Assembly: GCA_039932175.1 (NCBI GenBank)
Contig: JBDTQM010000002.1
Span: 136 to 64,135 of the forward strand
Direction: 5' to 3'
DNA: 64,000 nucleotides
Source: Specibacter sp.
GTDB taxonomy: Bacteria > Actinomycetota > Actinomycetes > Actinomycetales > Micrococcaceae
Within the stretch, counting starts at the first letter, position 1, and the number at the start of each line of letters is the position of its first letter. Under the pieces are notes generated by a model that worked only from the letters and a program-made list of their open reading frames with translations, was not told the origin of the DNA and ran no database searches. Positions 6,106 to 48,999 of the stretch are shown here, in pieces. A program made the translations under genes and the position numbers.

Positions 6106-7131
6106 TTAGCCATAGTCCGGAGCGCCGGGGATCCCCAGATACTCCTCGTAACTTTGGATTCCCCGCACCGTCATGTCCTGGGCAACGGCAATCCCCAGGT
6201 AGCGCAGGTGCCACGGTTCGGCCAGATACCCGGTGGTGGACTCCCGGCCCACGGGATACCGCACCACAAAGCCGTAGTCGGCACCGTGGGCCGCCACCCA
6301 TTTCCCCGCAGCGGTGTCAGCCACGCAAAACGTGAAATCGCAGTCTGCGCCGGAATTGGCGTCACCAATGTCCAGGGCGAACCCCGTTTGGTGCTCGGAG
6401 AATCCCGGCCGGGCCGAGGAAGCATCGGCCGACGCCACCCCCTTGCTGGCCACATAGCCGTTGTACAGGCCCACCTGGGTGCCGAAGGAGCGGTAGCTGC
6501 TCTTGATGCTGATGCGCACGCCGTCGGCGGCGGCCGCAGCGAACATGCGTTCCACGGCAGTTGCCGCTTCGGCGCGGAGCTGGACCGGTTCGGCAGAGCC
6601 TTTGCTTACAGCCGGGGTGACCAAATCGGCGGGGACGTAGTCTGCGGGCGCCAAAGGGTGGGTCTTGTTGACCAGGACCAGGGAGCTGGCGGGATTGGTT
6701 GTGTTACGCAGGGATTTCTCCGTCGGTGCCGCCGTGCCCGTGGCGAAGAGCTTTTGAATGGGGGCGCCGGCGCCTGCGCCTGTGATCAGGGGAGCCGGTG
6801 CGGGGCTTGTTGGGCCGGCCGGTGTGCTGGGGATGTTCGACGCCGGAGCCCGGGTGGGCGGGCGTGTTCCCGCCGGGGCGGACGGTTGCCCGGCGGCAGG
6901 GGAGGTGGGCAGCAGGCGCAGGCTCGGCGTCGTACCGGCAAGCTCGGAACCCGCAGCGGCCGGGGATTGCGGGGAAGCCGTTTCCAGCGCCAGCGCACCG
7001 CAAAAAACCAGGGCTGCGCCGATGACCGTGACGGCGATGCCTCCCGGCTGCGGCCAAGCCAGTCCGCGTCGCAGGCGGGCCGCCTTGCCCTGCCGGGCGC
7101 GCCGGGGCCTGCGGAGGCCGTCAACGCTCAC
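6106..7131 (-). CDS. M15B (VanY-like) D,D-carboxypeptidase with N-terminal TM helix and Pro-rich linker
   Basis: SSYRSF...SARPGFSEHQTG...EPWHLRYLG zinc-peptidase motifs; likely GTG start at 7131 overlapping the coaA stop (TAGTG). Confidence 0.85.
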   Translation of the reverse strand: MSVDGLRRPRRARQGKAARLRRGLAWPQPGGIAVTVIGAALVFCGALALETASPQSPAAAGSELAGTTPSLRLLPTSPAAGQPSAPAGTRPPTRAPASNIPSTPAGPTSPAPAPLITGAGAGAPIQKLFATGTAAPTEKSLRNTTNPASSLVLVNKTHPLAPADYVPADLVTPAVSKGSAEPVQLRAEAATAVERMFAAAAADGVRISIKSSYRSFGTQVGLYNGYVASKGVASADASSARPGFSEHQTGFALDIGDANSGADCDFTFCVADTAAGKWVAAHGADYGFVVRYPVGRESTTGYLAEPWHLRYLGIAVAQDMTVRGIQSYEEYLGIPGAPDYG

Positions 7132-15478: not shown

Positions 15479-16558
15479 GTGTCCAATCATCCTATTCGGG
15501 TTGCCATCGTAGGCGTAGGAAACTGTGCCGCATCGTTGGTACAGGGTGTCCAGTACTACCAGAACGCTGACCCCAGCGCGAAGGTTCCGGGCTTGATGCA
15601 TGTTGAGTTCGGCAAGTACCACGTCAATGACGTGCAGTTTGTGGCAGCATTCGACGTTGACAGCAAAAAGGTGGGCCTGGATCTTTCCGAGGCCATCGGT
15701 GCCAGCGAGAACAACACCATCAAGATTGCGGACGTTCCCAACTTGAACGTGCCAGTTCTGCGTGGAACCACGCTGGACGGCTTGGGCAAGTACTACCGCG
15801 AGACCATCGTGGAATCCGATGCAACCCCCGTGGACGTTGTGGCAACCCTGAAGGCAGCCAACGTTGACGTCATGGTCTGCTACCTGCCCGTTGGCTCGGA
15901 AGCCGCTGCGAAGTTCTACGCCCAGTGCGCCATCGACGCAGGCGTTGGCTTTGTCAACGCCCTGCCCGTCTTCATTGCCGGCACCAAGGAATGGGCCGAC
16001 AAGTTCACCGCCGCCGGCGTGCCGATCGTTGGTGATGACATCAAGAGCCAGATCGGTGCCACCATCACGCACCGCGTCATGGCGAAACTCTTCGAAGACC
16101 GCGGCGTCGTTTTGGACCGCACCTACCAGCTCAACGTTGGTGGCAACATGGACTTCAAGAACATGCTCGAGCGAGAGCGCCTGGAATCCAAGAAGATCTC
16201 CAAGACCCAGGCCGTCACCTCCAACACCTCAGCCGTGTTGGGCGAGGACGACGTCCACATTGGTCCGTCGGACTACGTGGCCTGGCTTGATGATAGGAAG
16301 TGGGCCTTCGTCCGCTTGGAAGGCCGCAACTTCGGTGACGCCCCCGTGTCCCTGGAGTACAAGCTTGAAGTATGGGATTCACCCAACTCGGCAGGTGTCA
16401 TCATCGACGCCATCCGTGCGGCGAAGATCGCCCTGGACCGCGGAATCGGCGGACCCATCCTGTCAGCATCCAGCTACTTCATGAAGTCCCCGCCGGAGCA
16501 GTACGCGGACGACGTGGCCCACGAAAAGGTCGAAGCCTTCATCCGGGGCGAAATCTAA
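15479..16558 (+). CDS. ino1: myo-Inositol-1-phosphate synthase
   Basis: [64 protein letters not shown]; AAGGAG RBS. Confidence 0.96.
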
Positions 16559-16570
16559 CACCATCTTTCA

Positions 16571-16667
16571 ACGCTATCGCAGCAATGGTGTGTTTTTCCC
16601 TGACGCTATCGCAGCAATGGCTGAATATTGCAGAACGCTCTCTCACTCTTGTGGGGGAGCGTTCTGC
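16571..16667 (+). repeat. Left repeat array (18-bp unit, 32-bp period)
   Basis: ACGCTATCGCAGCAATGG at 16571 and 16603, variant ACGCTCTCTCAC at 16635, and an inverted variant ending at 16662 forming a hairpin (16630-16667). Confidence 0.9.
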
Positions 16668-16715
16668 TGTCCGGGAGTTTGCGCACGGGTTCGTGCCGGA
16701 CGGCGGCGGCGTGGC

Positions 16716-17666
16716 TCAGCTGCCGGACGCAAAGCCGGAGGAAATGGCGGGGTCCACCCAGGCCTGCCGCAGGGAGCTTTTGATGCGGCGCACTGCATCG
16801 CGGAAACCGTCCGCCAAATCGTCGTCGGTGAAGACCAGCACGGTCCAGCCGGCAGCCCTGAAAGCTTTGTCTCTTCGCAAGTCGCTGTGCCGCTGAAGCT
16901 CGTCAAGGTGATGGGCGCCGTCGTATTGCAGGGCGATCCGCCGGGAGCGGTAGCCGGCGTCAGCCGATGGGCTGCCGGGCCGGTTCCATAGGGTGAGCTG
17001 CAAGTCGGGCTCCGGCAGGCCGGCGTCGAGCATGGCGAGCCGCAGGAGGGTTTCCGGGCTGGAATCGGCGCCCACGCGCATGCGGTCCAGGGCTTCGCGG
17101 GCCCGGACAATTCCTTGCATGTTTCCATGCCGCCCCACCGTTGCCCGCAGTGAATCGAGGGTGGCGTAAGGCGACCGGCGCCCTTCGAATTCGGGCCGCG
17201 GGATGCGGATGAGCTGGTCGCCCATGCACACAAGATCCTTGAGTGGCAGTATGCGGGCCAGATCAAGCCAGGTGCGGGCCCGGGTGCTGATGGGCAACCC
17301 GTCGTCGAGCTCAATCTCGTCGGGGAAGAAAAGCGTTTTGTGGGCGGTGATTCCGTGGCGCCGGACTTCAGGTGTTTTTCTGGGCTTGCTCAGATGCAGC
17401 GCGTTGGAATCGCCCAGCCACGGGGGAAGCACCAATTGGTGCAGCCTTGCCGCCGTGGAATGCGAAATCCACGCCCCGGGCGACACTGCGCAAAGGGCCC
17501 TTGCCGCCTCCCGCAGCTCGAAGTCCCAGCCGACTGGACGATACAGCCCGTAGCTGACGCCCGCTACGCCCTTGCCACGCAGCCGGTGGCGTGCCAGCCC
17601 CAGCGACTGGGCCTCTGCCCGCGTGAAAGGGCCGGTTGGGATGCTGAATGCGCCGCTGGAATCCAT
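16716..17666 (-). CDS. AbiEi-like N-terminal domain plus DUF559/Vsr-like PD-(D/E)XK nuclease-fold protein
   Basis: AWISHSTAARLH and STRARTWLDLAR (AbiEi-type region), then SSPETLLRL...PEPDLQ...ADAGY...IALQYDGAHH...RRDKAFRAAGWTVLVF; ATG at 17666. Confidence 0.75.
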   Translation of the reverse strand: MDSSGAFSIPTGPFTRAEAQSLGLARHRLRGKGVAGVSYGLYRPVGWDFELREAARALCAVSPGAWISHSTAARLHQLVLPPWLGDSNALHLSKPRKTPEVRRHGITAHKTLFFPDEIELDDGLPISTRARTWLDLARILPLKDLVCMGDQLIRIPRPEFEGRRSPYATLDSLRATVGRHGNMQGIVRAREALDRMRVGADSSPETLLRLAMLDAGLPEPDLQLTLWNRPGSPSADAGYRSRRIALQYDGAHHLDELQRHSDLRRDKAFRAAGWTVLVFTDDDLADGFRDAVRRIKSSLRQAWVDPAISSGFASGS

Positions 17667-17705
17667 GAACACATTCTGGCGCAAGTGGGCCGCCGGCGTG
17701 CAAAG

Positions 17706-17714
17706 TTATCCACA
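17706..17714 (+). promoter_or_regulatory. Perfect DnaA-box consensus upstream of the DUF559 gene
   Basis: TTATCCACA lies 40 nt upstream of ATG 17666; CAGAAT sits 6 nt before that ATG on the minus strand. Confidence 0.4.
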
Positions 17715-17760
17715 GCCAAGCAGTGACCGCTGCCCGCGGCTGTTTGAGCGGCGGACAGCG

Positions 17761-17836
17761 GTGCGAAAGCATCGCGAAAAATCCAGCCATTGCTGCGATA
17801 GCGTCAGGGAAAAACACACCATTGCTGCGATAGCGT
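17761..17836 (-). repeat. Right repeat array (inverted, 32-bp period)
   Basis: CCATTGCTGCGATAGCGT ending at 17804 and 17836; degenerate GTGCGAAAGCAT ending at 17772. Confidence 0.9.
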
Positions 17837-17846
17837 CACGGAGAGG

Positions 17847-18725
17847 CTATTTGATGGATCCTCTCATGACGCCGGAGATGACCCAGCGCTGGGCGAATAG
17901 GTAGATCAGGAGCAGCGGAGCCATGGCCATGAGGTAGGAGGCGAAGGCGGTTGTGTAGTCGGTGTTGAACTGGCCTTGGAAGATGTACTGCACCAGGGGC
18001 AGCGTGCGTGTGGTGGGATCGGAGAGGATCACCAGTGGCAGCAGGAAGTCATTCCACGCCCACAGGCAGGTCAGGATGCCCACGGTGGCATTGATGGGGG
18101 TCAGGATCGGGAAGATCACCTTGCGGAAAGTGGTCCAGACGCTGGCCCCGTCCATGATGGCGGCCTCTTCCAGCTCGGCCGGGATGGACTTGATGAAGGC
18201 CGTGTAGACAAAGATGTTGAAGCTCAGGCCATAGACCGTATACAGCAGGAACAAGCCCACCGGATTGTCCAGGCCCAGGACAGCCATTTCCTTGGTCACT
18301 GGCAGCATGATGATGGGGAATGGCACAAACAACGCGGCGATGAAGAAGTAGTACAGCGCCTTGAAGAACGGGCGGTGCATGTTCCGGGCAATGGCGTAGG
18401 CCACGAGGGAGTTTGTCAGGATGGTCAAGATGACCGCCGCCACCGTCACTATGCCGGAGATCAGCAGCGCATTGGGGAAATTGGTCAGTTTCCACGCGTT
18501 GGAGAAGTTCTCCAGGTGAATGCTGGTGGGCAGTGCCAGGCCATTGCCGCCGAGTTGGTCTGACGATTTCAAGGCCGTGACGATGGTGAAGTACAGCGGA
18601 ATCAACACCGTCAGGGACAGTACCGCAACCAGGATGGTCAAGGGCACGTTGACTGAGGAACGACGCCGGGCCTTGGCCGGGGTGCCGGTTGTCGCCTCTG
18701 TTGTGCTTGGGGTGAGTGTGCTCAT
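17847..18725 (-). CDS. Carbohydrate ABC transporter permease (MsmG-like)
   Basis: EAA loop IPAELEEAAIMDGAS; six hydrophobic segments; WAWNDFLLP. Confidence 0.92.
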   Translation of the reverse strand: MSTLTPSTTEATTGTPAKARRRSSVNVPLTILVAVLSLTVLIPLYFTIVTALKSSDQLGGNGLALPTSIHLENFSNAWKLTNFPNALLISGIVTVAAVILTILTNSLVAYAIARNMHRPFFKALYYFFIAALFVPFPIIMLPVTKEMAVLGLDNPVGLFLLYTVYGLSFNIFVYTAFIKSIPAELEEAAIMDGASVWTTFRKVIFPILTPINATVGILTCLWAWNDFLLPLVILSDPTTRTLPLVQYIFQGQFNTDYTTAFASYLMAMAPLLLIYLFAQRWVISGVMRGSIK

Positions 18726-48907: not shown

Positions 48908-48999
48908 ACGCTCTCGCAGCAGTGGTTGCTTTTTCCCGAACGCTCTCGCACTGTACTGCGATAGCGTTCCGATGAAACTGACCATTGCTGCGATAGCGT
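48908..48999. mobile_element. Gene-less 92-bp palindromic copy of the 16571/17836 repeat family (REPIN/MITE-like)
   Basis: Forward units start at 48908 and 48940, inverted units end at 48967 and 48999 (32-bp period); the last unit CCATTGCTGCGATAGCGT is identical to 17819-17836; lies between convergent stops. Confidence 0.7.

What the first reader, a model, noticed from the sequence alone, without database searches (positions are those of the whole stretch)
16571..17836. Nuclease-fold (AbiEi-like/DUF559) gene enclosed by periodic terminal inverted repeats: candidate new REP/REPIN-type mobile system without a RAYT or DDE transposase
Seen: the two ends are exact 53-bp inverted copies. Each end carries three units on a strict 32-bp period (left starts 16571/16603/16635; right ends 17836/17804/17772), with unit ACGCTATCGCAGCAATGG and 14-bp spacers. 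The cassette fills the gap between two convergent stop codons and holds one gene, encoding an AbiEi-like region plus a Vsr/DUF559 PD-(D/E)XK fold. Known: REP/BIME arrays flank RAYT (HUH) transposase genes and spread as gene-less copies, whereas DUF559 proteins are mostly annotated only as hypothetical or antitoxin-like. Inference: this protein may bind and cut or mobilise its own repeat family, acting as a functional analogue of RAYT with a different nuclease chemistry. The 32-bp period (about three helical turns) fits phased binding on one DNA face.
Basis: partly seen in the sequence, partly recalled or inferred. Interest (0 to 1): 0.85.

Follow-up and report, generated by a model that had tools for sequence, protein, structure and literature searches.

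The report
Nuclease gene enclosed by its own repeats
A gene for a DNA-binding nuclease sits between inverted arrays of a 32-base repeat that is also scattered at about 45 gene ends in this Arthrobacter genome, and across the genus the gene and the repeats occur, vary and disappear together, so this looks like an undescribed counterpart of the REP/RAYT repeat systems that uses an unrelated enzyme.

Summary
Window 16571-16623 and 17784-17836 are exact 53-bp inverted copies. Each carries two full ACGCTATCGCAGCAATGG units on a 32-bp period. The "third unit" is only a degenerate half unit.

They enclose one gene, an AbiEi-fold DNA-binding domain fused to a Vsr/DUF559 nuclease domain.

- **Dispersed family:** the unit occurs 108 times at about 45 loci in this genome, mostly as gene-less 90-300-bp palindromic arrays placed just after stop codons. 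The genome has no RAYT gene.
- **Orthologues:** they exist in 23 of 24 genus relatives, usually next to ino1. Nearly all are enclosed by 32-bp-period inverted arrays whose unit differs by species and usually matches that genome's dispersed family. G006 is an exception.
- **Natural knock-outs:** the two genomes without the gene have empty ino1 sites and chance-level array counts.
- **Other clades:** other DUF559 clades are flanked by their own, different palindromes. In Pseudarthrobacter, gene and palindromes are swapped together at one fixed site.

I read this as a REPtron-like pair of nuclease and cognate repeat. Binding and cutting are untested, and this clade has Gln where the family has a catalytic Glu. 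I found no paper describing it.

The parts
16571..16623 (+). Left arm: two full 18-bp units (16571-16588, 16603-16620) with 14-bp T-rich spacers on a 32-bp period. It is an exact inverted copy of the right arm and starts 12 nt after the ino1 stop codon.
16630..16667 (.). Strong 17-bp-stem hairpin (GCAGAACGCTCTCTCAC / GTGGGGGAGCGTTCTGC) between the left array and the DUF559 stop codon. A hairpin of the form GAACGCTCCCTCAC-N4-GTGAGGGAGCGTTC is conserved at this position in most orthologous loci. It is probably a shared terminator for ino1 and the nuclease gene.
16716..17684 (-). The only gene of the cassette: a 322-aa ORF, with a likely real start at the conserved ATG at 17666 (316 aa). Residues 17-220 have the AbiEi-type winged-helix fold. 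Residues about 225-310 form a Vsr/DUF559 nuclease domain with D242, Q253, D255, H259, D268 and R271.
17703..17715 (-). Conserved upstream motif CTGTGGATAACTT (gene strand), which contains a DnaA-box-like TTATCCACA on the other strand. It lies 30-48 nt upstream of the ATG in about 40 of 51 DUF559 paralogues of all clades. It is a candidate promoter or operator.
17726..17762 (.). Imperfect hairpin (CCGCTG...CAGCGG) between the promoter region and the right array. Orthologues have a hairpin here that includes the innermost unit.
17784..17836 (-). Right arm: two full units (17787-17804, 17819-17836) in inverted orientation, plus a degenerate partial unit at 17762-17772. It ends 10 nt before the stop codon of the convergent ABC permease gene.
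48908..48999 (.). Gene-less compact member of the same repeat family: unit, spacer, central hairpin, spacer, inverted unit. It sits between two convergent genes and folds as one long hairpin (-30.8 kcal/mol, z -9.0). In genomes G007 and G020 the orthologous site holds a full cassette with a DUF559 gene. In 9 genomes the site is empty.

Best explanation
The cassette is the 'home' copy of a repeat-plus-enzyme system, analogous to a REPtron (a RAYT gene flanked by its REPs) but built from unrelated parts.

The single protein joins an AbiEi-type winged-helix DNA-binding module to a Vsr/DUF559 PD-(D/E)XK nuclease module. I infer that the winged-helix part reads the 18-bp unit, whose core ACGC-N5-CA is shared across the genus. 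Because units recur every 32 bp, about three helical turns, several protomers would sit on one face of the DNA.

I further infer that the nuclease domain nicks or cuts at or near bound units. Host recombinational repair, meaning gene conversion between copies and unequal exchange within arrays, would then keep the family homogeneous within a genome. The same repair would change unit number in steps of 32 bp, re-type arrays in place, and occasionally seed new arrays in the neutral space just after stop codons.

Shown here:
- the anatomy of the cassette;
- the dispersed family;
- co-occurrence, dosage and co-variation of gene and repeats across 25 genomes;
- the same design in other DUF559 clades.

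Inferred only: binding, cleavage, and the repair-based spreading.
For: 1. Dispersed family. There are 26 exact units and 108 units at up to 3 mismatches, at about 45 loci. Most are gene-less palindromic arrays of 90-300 bp. At 33 of 45 loci the array abuts a stop codon, with the unit's ACGC end towards it.
2. No HUH transposase is present: PF01797 is absent.
3. Enclosure recurs. About 28 of 30 clade members (65-76% identical), found in 23 of 24 genus genomes and at five or more different chromosomal sites, have 32-bp-period arrays on both flanks. None of 23 more distant paralogues does.
4. Presence and absence agree. A generic tandem-unit pattern gives 16-148 hits in most genomes with the gene (G004 has 7; G016 has 3, see evidence against). 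The two gene-less genus genomes, G018 and G022, give 2 and 1, and other families give 0-1. Their ino1 sites hold only a terminator hairpin.
5. Dosage. Gene number correlates with array hits (Spearman rho 0.75, p 1.4e-5, not corrected for phylogeny).
6. Co-variation. Unit type follows the protein subclade. The genome-wide dominant unit matches the cassette's unit in G000, G002, G005, G010, G017, G024, G007, G020, G023, G001 and G012.
7. Turnover. The orthologous 'site X' is empty in 9 genomes, holds a compact array of the local unit type in 9, and holds a full cassette in 2. Between G020 and G007 one array differs by exactly one 32-bp unit, and another site has switched unit type.
8. Independent replicates. 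The C70 paralogue of this genome is flanked by a 56-bp palindrome present at about 14 loci. About 22 of 27 members of that clade are flanked by species-specific palindromes. In Pseudarthrobacter, gene and palindromes are replaced together at one fixed locus.
9. Protein. The AbiEi fold plus a Vsr-like fold is modelled with pLDDT 88. D242, Y254, G256, H259, D268 and R271 are invariant in 40 paralogues.
Against: - No biochemical evidence exists.
- All 28 clade members have Gln253 where 3HRL and many paralogues have the catalytic Glu. The domain may be a nickase, or a binding-only module.
- G006 is the sister of G007 and G020 at this locus. It carries 39 units of the G000 type and only 4 of the type that flanks its sole clade gene. 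Pairing between protein and variable unit positions is therefore not strict.
- Genomes with one cassette also hold minor unit types without a cassette (G017 listing).
- G016 has the gene but gives only 3 hits to the generic tandem-unit pattern. Its unit has a differently spaced core, so the presence/absence test does not cover it.
- No target-site duplication was seen.
- A PD-(D/E)XK nuclease alone cannot carry out strand transfer, so how arrays reach new sites is unexplained.
- Spacers of the two arms of compact elements do not co-vary (permutation p 0.22).
- The co-occurrence statistics are not corrected for shared ancestry.
Confidence: 0.55

Rival explanations
1. The gene is a selfish, homing-type cassette that depends on the arrays, not the other way round. 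The arrays would be an independent repeat family, host-useful 3'-end elements or elements mobilised by something else. The Vsr-like nuclease (the fold of homing endonuclease I-Bth0305I) would cut the centre of gene-less arrays, and the cassette would be copied in by repair, using the arrays as portable homology arms.
For: - The cassette has the layout of a compact element with a gene in its middle.
- Site X is a compact element in G000 but a full cassette in G007 and G020.
- Cassettes at the ino1 site are not monophyletic; the site X and site Z copies nest among them.
- Cassettes are swapped as modules at a fixed locus in Pseudarthrobacter.
- The closest structural match of the nuclease domain is a homing endonuclease.
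- G006 has many arrays of a type without a matching cassette.
Against: - The gene-less genomes G018 and G022 have almost no arrays, although G018 keeps one clear relic. This is easier to explain by arrays decaying after gene loss than by arrays vanishing first.
- The ino1 copy is stably syntenic in 16 or more genomes, and its DNA divergence tracks that of its flanks in the one close comparison made. That does not look like recent invasion.
- Array abundance rises with gene number.
- Nothing else in the genome is an obvious mobiliser; there is no RAYT.
Confidence: 0.2
2. The protein is mainly a sequence-specific DNA-binding protein, a regulator or nucleoid-organising factor with a disabled or vestigial nuclease domain. 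The arrays would be its genome-wide binding sites at gene ends, for example acting as transcription insulators, terminators or roadblocks. The copies around its own gene would serve for autoregulation, as AbiEi antitoxins autoregulate through repeats in their promoters.
For: - The N-terminus has the AbiEi fold.
- Gln is invariant at the catalytic Glu position.
- The 32-bp phasing and the placement at stop codons between convergent genes fit a binding-site role.
- Compact elements fold as strong hairpins that could terminate transcription.
- A separate conserved motif lies upstream of all paralogues.
Against: - The other Vsr-type active-site residues (D242, D255, H259, D268, R271) are invariant over 40 divergent paralogues. 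This argues for retained chemistry. Vsr itself has no Glu at that position (my recollection of the E. coli Vsr sequence; not checked with a tool here).
- A regulon of binding sites would not be expected to change sequence family wholesale between sister species, switch type in place, or vary by whole units.
- Sister clades with the canonical Glu show the same gene-inside-repeats layout.
Confidence: 0.17
3. Coincidence of position. The arrays colonise any gap after a stop codon, and a dispensable gene lying between two convergent genes simply acquired one array from each neighbour.
For: - One-sided arrays follow single gene ends.
- Unrelated genes can lie between two arrays: an alcohol dehydrogenase gene on C133 and an NmrA-like pseudogene on C56.
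Against: - Only about 1% of gene ends carry an array. Yet about 28 of 30 clade members, in 22 genomes and at several different sites, have arrays on both sides, and 0 of 23 control paralogues do.
- The arrays disappear genome-wide where the gene is absent.
- The arms of this cassette are identical over 53 bp including a spacer, whereas arms of compact elements share only about 6 of 14 spacer bases.
Confidence: 0.03

Closest known systems
REPtron: RAYT (TnpA-REP, HUH Y1 transposase) gene flanked by REP/REPIN/BIME sequences (Nunvar 2010, PMC2817692; Bertels & Rainey 2011, PMC3116915; Ton-Hoang 2012, PMC3333891)
   Same: - A single-copy, largely vertically inherited gene is bracketed by inverted copies of a short repeat.
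- The same repeat is scattered in dozens of gene-less copies in extragenic space after genes.
- Repeat families are lineage-specific and go with their own gene copy.
- The repeats are missing where the gene is missing.
- Genomes with several gene copies hold several repeat types.
   Different: - The enzyme is unrelated: an AbiEi winged helix plus a Vsr/DUF559 PD-(D/E)XK domain, not an HUH tyrosine transposase. No PF01797 is present in the genome.
- The repeat unit is not itself a hairpin and carries no GTAG tag.
- Units form direct tandem arrays on a strict 32-bp period. Only the two arrays together form a palindrome.
Homing endonuclease I-Bth0305I (EDxHD family, Vsr-like fold; PDB 3R3P)
   Same: It is the best structural match of the C-terminal domain. 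It shows that a Vsr-like nuclease can drive the spread of its own gene by cleavage followed by repair. Cassette-versus-empty site polymorphism is seen here too.
   Different: The gene is not in an intron or intein. It is flanked by repeat arrays that also exist in many gene-less copies. It has an N-terminal AbiEi-type DNA-binding module, and Gln replaces the first acidic residue of the motif.
AbiEi antitoxin of the type IV toxin-antitoxin / abortive-infection system AbiE (PDB 6Y8Q)
   Same: The N-terminal roughly 200 residues share the fold and match PADLOC AbiEi models. AbiEi binds inverted repeats in its own promoter (from my knowledge of the AbiE literature).
   Different: There is no AbiEii nucleotidyltransferase toxin gene next to it, since the cassette holds one gene. 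The C-terminal domain is a nuclease instead.
CGTC-tagged REPs, for which no dedicated transposase is known (Di Nocera 2013, PMC3733652)
   Same: These are extragenic repeats after coding regions whose enzyme partner is unknown. In many genus members the units start GACGC, which reads GCGTC on the other strand and so contains CGTC.
   Different: That survey did not cover Actinobacteria or Arthrobacter. Those REPs are individual hairpins. The resemblance in the tag is only a lead and was not tested.
Transposon ends with multiple phased transposase-binding sites and their MITE derivatives (e.g. Tn7 ends; TnsA is a PD-(D/E)XK nuclease)
   Same: Each end carries several direct copies of a binding-site-sized unit, inverted between the two ends. 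Short gene-less derivatives consist of the two ends only.
   Different: There is no DDE or other strand-transfer enzyme, and no target-site duplication was seen. The element sits stably beside ino1 across a genus. TnsA was only a weak fold match (E about 0.4).

Membership tests
REP/RAYT system (REPtron) | The gene encodes an HUH Y1 transposase (Pfam Y1_Tnp, PF01797) | tested here: not met
   There is no PF01797 match anywhere in the genome, while the control genomes matched. The enclosed protein is AbiEi plus DUF559.
REP/RAYT system (REPtron) | The gene is flanked by inverted copies of a repeat that is also dispersed in many extragenic copies | tested here: met
   The arms are 53 bp and exact. 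There are 108 units at about 45 loci.
REP/RAYT system (REPtron) | Each repeat unit is itself a short imperfect palindrome (hairpin) with a conserved GTAG-type tag | tested here: not met
   The unit ACGCTATCGCAGCAATGG is not self-complementary, and the arrays alone fold weakly. There is no GTAG tag.
REP/RAYT system (REPtron) | The repeat family co-occurs and co-varies with its gene across genomes | tested here: met
   with the exception of G006.
DUF559 / Vsr-like PD-(D/E)XK nucleases (PF04480) | Match to the family profile above Pfam's gathering score | tested here: met
   23.3 bits against a cut-off of 20.6, residues 247-305. A profile of 40 paralogues matches 3HRL at E 5.5e-4.
DUF559 / Vsr-like PD-(D/E)XK nucleases (PF04480) | Vsr-like fold of the domain | tested here: met
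   Foldseek: 3r3p_B (TM 0.72 on the target) and 3hrl (TM 0.65). The model has pLDDT 88.
DUF559 / Vsr-like PD-(D/E)XK nucleases (PF04480) | Full set of catalytic residues (D ... E-x-D-G-x-x-H ... D) | tested here: inconclusive
   D242, D255, H259 and D268 are conserved. The Glu is Gln253 in all 28 clade members, whereas other paralogue clades keep Glu.
AbiE type IV toxin-antitoxin system | AbiEi-type N-terminal winged-helix domain | tested here: met
   PADLOC AbiEi at 1.8e-15. Foldseek 6y8q_D at E 5e-4.
AbiE type IV toxin-antitoxin system | Adjacent AbiEii nucleotidyltransferase toxin gene in an operon | tested here: not met
   There is only one gene between the two convergent neighbours ino1 and the ABC permease gene. 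The same holds in orthologous loci.
TIR transposon with MITE derivatives | Terminal inverted repeats and short gene-less derivatives made of the two ends | tested here: met
TIR transposon with MITE derivatives | Encoded strand-transfer transposase (DDE, serine, tyrosine or HUH) and target-site duplications | tested here: not met
   The only protein is a wHTH-nuclease fusion. No direct duplication was seen at the ends of 36 elements inspected.
Homing endonuclease gene (EDxHD / I-Bth0305I type) | Lies within a self-splicing intron or intein, or as a free-standing gene at a cleavable cognate empty site | tested here: inconclusive
   It is not in an intron or intein. However, the same site can be empty, a compact array or a full cassette, and cassettes are swapped at a fixed site in Pseudarthrobacter. 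Cleavage of the empty site is untested.

The most novel reading that the evidence does not exclude
AbiEi-Vsr (DUF559) fusion proteins are a widespread class of repeat-associated nucleases in Actinomycetota, unrecognised so far.

Each clade would create, homogenise and spread its own family of extragenic repeats. Here these are phased 32-bp arrays; in sister clades they are 55-60-bp hairpins. The mechanism would be site-specific nicking or cleavage followed by recombinational repair.

This would make them a non-HUH, non-transposase route to REP-like genome-wide repeats. It would also give the first enzyme partner for such repeats outside the RAYT world.
Probability: 0.4. Interest if true: 0.9.

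Novelty: new variant of a known kind. Interest (0 to 1): 0.8.

Why it matters
How short extragenic repeats arise and persist in bacterial genomes is understood for only one enzyme family, the RAYT/HUH transposases. Several repeat classes still lack a partner enzyme; Di Nocera 2013 says so for CGTC REPs.

Here a different protein shows the full REPtron signature: a sequence-reading winged helix fused to a Vsr-type nuclease, annotated only as DUF559 or "AbiEi antitoxin domain".

The genus offers good material for testing:
- natural knock-outs (G018, G022);
- dosage variants with one to three cassettes;
- an array-rich genome whose arrays do not match its only cassette (G006);
- species-specific unit variants.

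The idea is therefore directly testable by EMSA, cleavage assays, ChIP-seq and deletion. If it holds, thousands of DUF559 "hypothetical" genes gain a role. It would also yield programmable 18-bp-reading nuclease modules and a second, mechanistically distinct model for intragenomic repeat populations.

Tried and rejected
- **Rfam:** a scan of the window found no known RNA family at the arrays or anywhere else.
- **Promoter and terminator scans:** sigma-70 and intrinsic-terminator consensus scans of 16400-18000 found nothing.
- **NCBIfam:** no model matches the protein.
- **CRISPR-like reading:** rejected. The unit is 18 bp with 14-bp spacers that share a T-rich consensus, and the arrays are palindromic pairs at gene ends.
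- **Toxin-antitoxin reading:** rejected, because there is no AbiEii partner.
- **Arms correcting each other:** I tested whether the two arms of compact elements share element-specific spacers, which would suggest fold-back copying. The result was not significant (6.3 against 6.0 of 14 bases, p 0.22).
- **Palindromes as a by-product of convergent genes:** rejected. Many palindromic elements abut only one gene end.
- **Simple inversion switch:** I looked for one between the inverted arms. All ino1-site orthologues have the same convergent orientation. The opposite orientations seen in Pseudarthrobacter are replacements by a 67%-identical cassette, not inversions.
- **Horizontal replacement in G006:** I tested whether its mismatch is due to recent horizontal replacement of the cassette. 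The gene is no more similar to G007's than the flanks are, so that is not supported.
- **Faulty null:** my first null model for inverted-repeat scores in distant loci was invalid because the loci are syntenic in opposite orientations. That failure led to the swap finding instead.
Full report
**1. The observation**

The sequence is as described. Window 16571-16623 and 17784-17836 are exact inverted copies over 53 bp, and weaker similarity continues to 76 nt at 88%. Each arm holds two perfect ACGCTATCGCAGCAATGG units 32 bp apart. The window has 6 matches at up to 3 mismatches, where 0.07 are expected.

The "third unit" on each side is only a degenerate partial unit. The left one is the 5' half of a separate strong hairpin at 16630-16667 (-17.4 kcal/mol, z -8.6).

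The left arm starts 12 nt after the ino1 stop codon. The right arm ends 10 nt before the stop codon of a convergent ABC permease gene. Only one gene lies between them, on the minus strand at 16716-17684. Alignment with relatives points to the conserved ATG at 17666 as its start.

**2. The protein**

- Pfam gives DUF559 just above threshold for residues 247-305.
- PADLOC gives AbiEi for residues 17-145 (E 1.8e-15). NCBIfam gives nothing.
- An AlphaFold model built on 40 paralogues has mean pLDDT 88.
- Its N-terminal two thirds match the AbiEi antitoxin structure 6Y8Q. Its C-terminal 100 residues match the Vsr-like catalytic domain of homing endonuclease I-Bth0305I (3R3P) and the DUF559 structure 3HRL.
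- D242, Y254, G256, H259, D268, R271 and G279-W280 are invariant in all 40 paralogues.
- All 28 members of the window's own clade have Gln253 where 3HRL and several sister clades have Glu. Catalysis is therefore plausible but uncertain.
- There is no AbiEii partner gene, so this is not an AbiE toxin-antitoxin pair.

**3. The repeat is a genome-wide family**

The assembly (449 contigs, 4.36 Mb, 63% G+C) holds 26 exact units and 108 units at up to 3 mismatches, grouped into about 45 loci.

Most loci are compact gene-less elements of 90-300 bp. They are built as (unit-spacer)n, a central hairpin ACGCTNTCGCA/TGCGANAGCGT, then (spacer-inverted unit)m. Some loci are one-sided arrays. A second copy lies in the window at 48908-48999 and folds as one long hairpin (-30.8 kcal/mol, z -9.0).

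The spacers share a T-rich consensus. At 33 of 45 loci the outer ACGC end of an array lies within about 20 nt of a stop codon.

No RAYT/Y1 transposase gene exists in the genome. Rfam has no family for the repeat.

**4. Orthologous loci**

The protein has 65-76% identical relatives in 23 of 24 other genomes of the genus. This is the psychrophilic Arthrobacter group that includes A. livingstonensis, A. glacialis and A. psychrolactophilus.

In at least 16 loci the gene lies convergent to ino1, which is 90-97% identical at the protein level.

Nearly every orthologous locus again has inverted arrays with a 32-bp period on both flanks, but the unit differs by species. Examples are ACGCCGTATCACCTTTGG, GACGCTCCCTCACTTTTGG, GACGCGGCATCACTTTCCGG and GACGCTCCTGCACTTTCGGG. 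All except the G009/G016 type share the core ACGC-N5-CA.

A simple periodicity score finds 32-bp arrays on both sides in about 28 of 30 clade loci, including copies at four other chromosomal sites. It finds none in 23 more distant paralogues used as controls.

**5. Presence, absence and dosage**

A generic pattern for two tandem units (ACGC-N5-CA, 21 nt, ACGC-N5-CA) gives:
- 16-148 hits in most genus genomes that have the gene;
- 7 in G004, whose ino1 copy is a decayed pseudogene;
- 3 in G016, whose unit has a differently spaced core;
- 2 and 1 in G018 and G022, the two genus genomes without the gene;
- 0-1 in sixteen other families of the order.

In G018 and G022 the ino1 downstream region holds only a terminator hairpin, with no gene and no array. 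The G018 hairpin looks like a relic unit pair.

The number of clade genes per genome (0-3) correlates with array hits (Spearman 0.75, p 1.4e-5). This is not corrected for phylogeny.

**6. Co-variation, and its limit**

Protein subclades coincide with unit types.

| Unit pattern (up to 1 mismatch) | Counts per genome |
|---|---|
| Window's unit, ACGCTATCGCAGCAATGG (15 genus genomes searched) | G000 69, G002 52, G006 39, G005 20, others 0-2 |
| ACGCSGYATCACY type (all 25 genus genomes) | G010 56, G017 41, G024 41, G007 30, G020 28, G023 22, G001 19, G012 8, G000 0, all others at most 6 |

In all of these except G006, the dominant type is the one that flanks the cassette.

G006 is the exception. 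At this locus it is the sister of G007 and G020 (ino1 89%, gene 90%, right flank 91% DNA identity). Its only clade gene is flanked by the ACGCGGCATCAC type, of which it has 4 copies. Yet it carries 39 units of the window's type.

Either the protein reads mainly the shared core, or a cognate cassette was lost or missed. Strict one-to-one pairing is not established.

**7. Turnover**

The site orthologous to window 48908-48999 is empty in 9 genomes. It holds a compact array of the local unit type in 9, and a complete cassette with a clade gene in G007 and G020.

Between G020 and G007, which are about 90% identical in DNA, most arrays are conserved in place. One differs by exactly one 32-bp unit. 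One intergenic site holds arrays of different unit types in the two genomes.

Arrays are therefore gained, lost, resized in unit steps and re-typed in place.

**8. The layout is general for the gene family**

In this genome the paralogue on contig C70 is flanked on both sides by a 56-bp palindrome (TGACTGGACAGATAATGCCGCT-N12-inverse) that recurs at about 14 loci. The C122 paralogue has another flanking repeat, and two further paralogues have none.

Across the genus, about 22 of 27 members of the C70 clade are flanked by hairpin palindromes of common design but species-specific sequence. Several other control paralogues are also flanked by their own palindromes.

In Arthrobacter and Pseudarthrobacter one conserved locus holds a DUF559 cassette in either orientation. 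In strains Y6 and S6 the flanks are 90-94% identical. The 1.1-kb middle is only 67% identical, is inverted, and carries different flanking palindromes. Gene and repeat are thus exchanged together as a module.

**9. Interpretation**

The best reading is a REPtron-like pair: a sequence-reading nuclease whose gene sits inside its cognate repeats, with gene-less copies spread at gene ends.

I propose three steps, all inferred:
1. The winged-helix domain binds each 18-bp unit.
2. The 32-bp phasing places protomers on one face of the DNA.
3. Nicking or cleavage followed by host recombinational repair homogenises arrays, resizes them and seeds new ones.

Two rivals remain substantial. The cassette could be a homing-type selfish gene that needs pre-existing arrays. 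Or the protein could be a binding-only factor, with the arrays as its sites. Chance juxtaposition is essentially excluded.

**10. Literature and earlier scan notes**

Full-text searches found no paper that links DUF559 or AbiEi-Vsr proteins to REP-like repeats, and none that describes these Arthrobacter arrays.

The nearest items in print are these:
- the RAYT/REPIN literature;
- the remark that CGTC REPs lack a dedicated transposase (PMC3733652);
- a table row listing DUF559 proteins as enriched among predicted inversion targets (PMC9881135).

Earlier notes of this scan report the same gene-inside-repeats layout for DUF559 genes in many other genomes. I treated them as leads.

This locus adds four things: a densely sampled genus with natural gene losses, a dosage series, unit co-variation, and one clear exception.

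Noticed in passing
window 17703-17715; also genome contigs C5:24176, C42:6013, C58:997, C59:13138, C122:2993, C35 (three copies): The motif CTGTGGATAAC(T/C)T contains a DnaA-box-like TTATCCACA. Clade B has TTGTCCACA in the opposite orientation. It lies 30-48 nt upstream of the start codon of about 40 of 51 DUF559 paralogues of all clades, although their flanking repeats differ. GTTATCCACAG occurs 17 times in the genome against about 1 expected. It may be a promoter, an operator or a true DnaA site; this is undecided.
   Followed up: partly
L106 (Pseudarthrobacter sp. Y6) 1355-2469 versus L139 (Pseudarthrobacter sp. S6) 1386-2533; also L112/L128 and L105/L117: At one conserved chromosomal locus (flanks 85-95% identical) related strains carry DUF559 cassettes in opposite orientation. 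The cassettes are only about 67% identical and have different flanking palindromes. Only the outermost GCGAAC/GTTCGC is shared. This is an idiomorph-like module swap.
   Followed up: partly
genome contig C70:5437-5492 and 6611-6666, flanking the paralogue at C70:5511-6500: A second repeat-enzyme pair exists in the same genome. A 56-bp palindrome (TGACTGGACAGATAATGCCGCT-N12-inverse) sits on both sides of another DUF559 gene and at about 14 further loci.
   Followed up: partly
genome contigs C133:818-2051 and C56:13341-14828: Unrelated genes can also lie between two arrays. An alcohol dehydrogenase gene lies between two arrays in direct orientation. A frameshifted NmrA-like gene lies between a one-sided array and a full palindromic element.
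   Followed up: no
G006 (39 units, e.g. C1:938248-938322, C7:227531-227580): This genome is rich in the ACGCTATCGCAGCAATGG unit, yet its only clade gene is flanked by a different unit type. Its sister genomes G007 and G020 have none of these units at up to 1 mismatch. The arrays may be orphans left after a cassette loss, or the protein may have relaxed specificity.
   Followed up: partly
L085, L095, L098 (records JADHDY010000002, JADHDY010000004 and JADHDY010000031): A public assembly titled Sporosarcina beigongshangi REN13 carries three cassettes of this Arthrobacter-specific clade, in synteny with the window. The record is probably mislabelled or is a contaminant assembly.
   Followed up: no
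L060 (G004:C58), downstream of ino1: The ino1-adjacent copy in G004 is a decayed pseudogene with one remaining unit and the hairpin. This genome has few arrays: 7 hits in an assembly that is 92% complete.
   Followed up: no
G017:C38:30534-30745 and G020:C1:1518234-1518413: Some arrays consist of 6-7 tandem units that are identical including the spacers. This points to recent local amplification in 32-bp steps.
   Followed up: no
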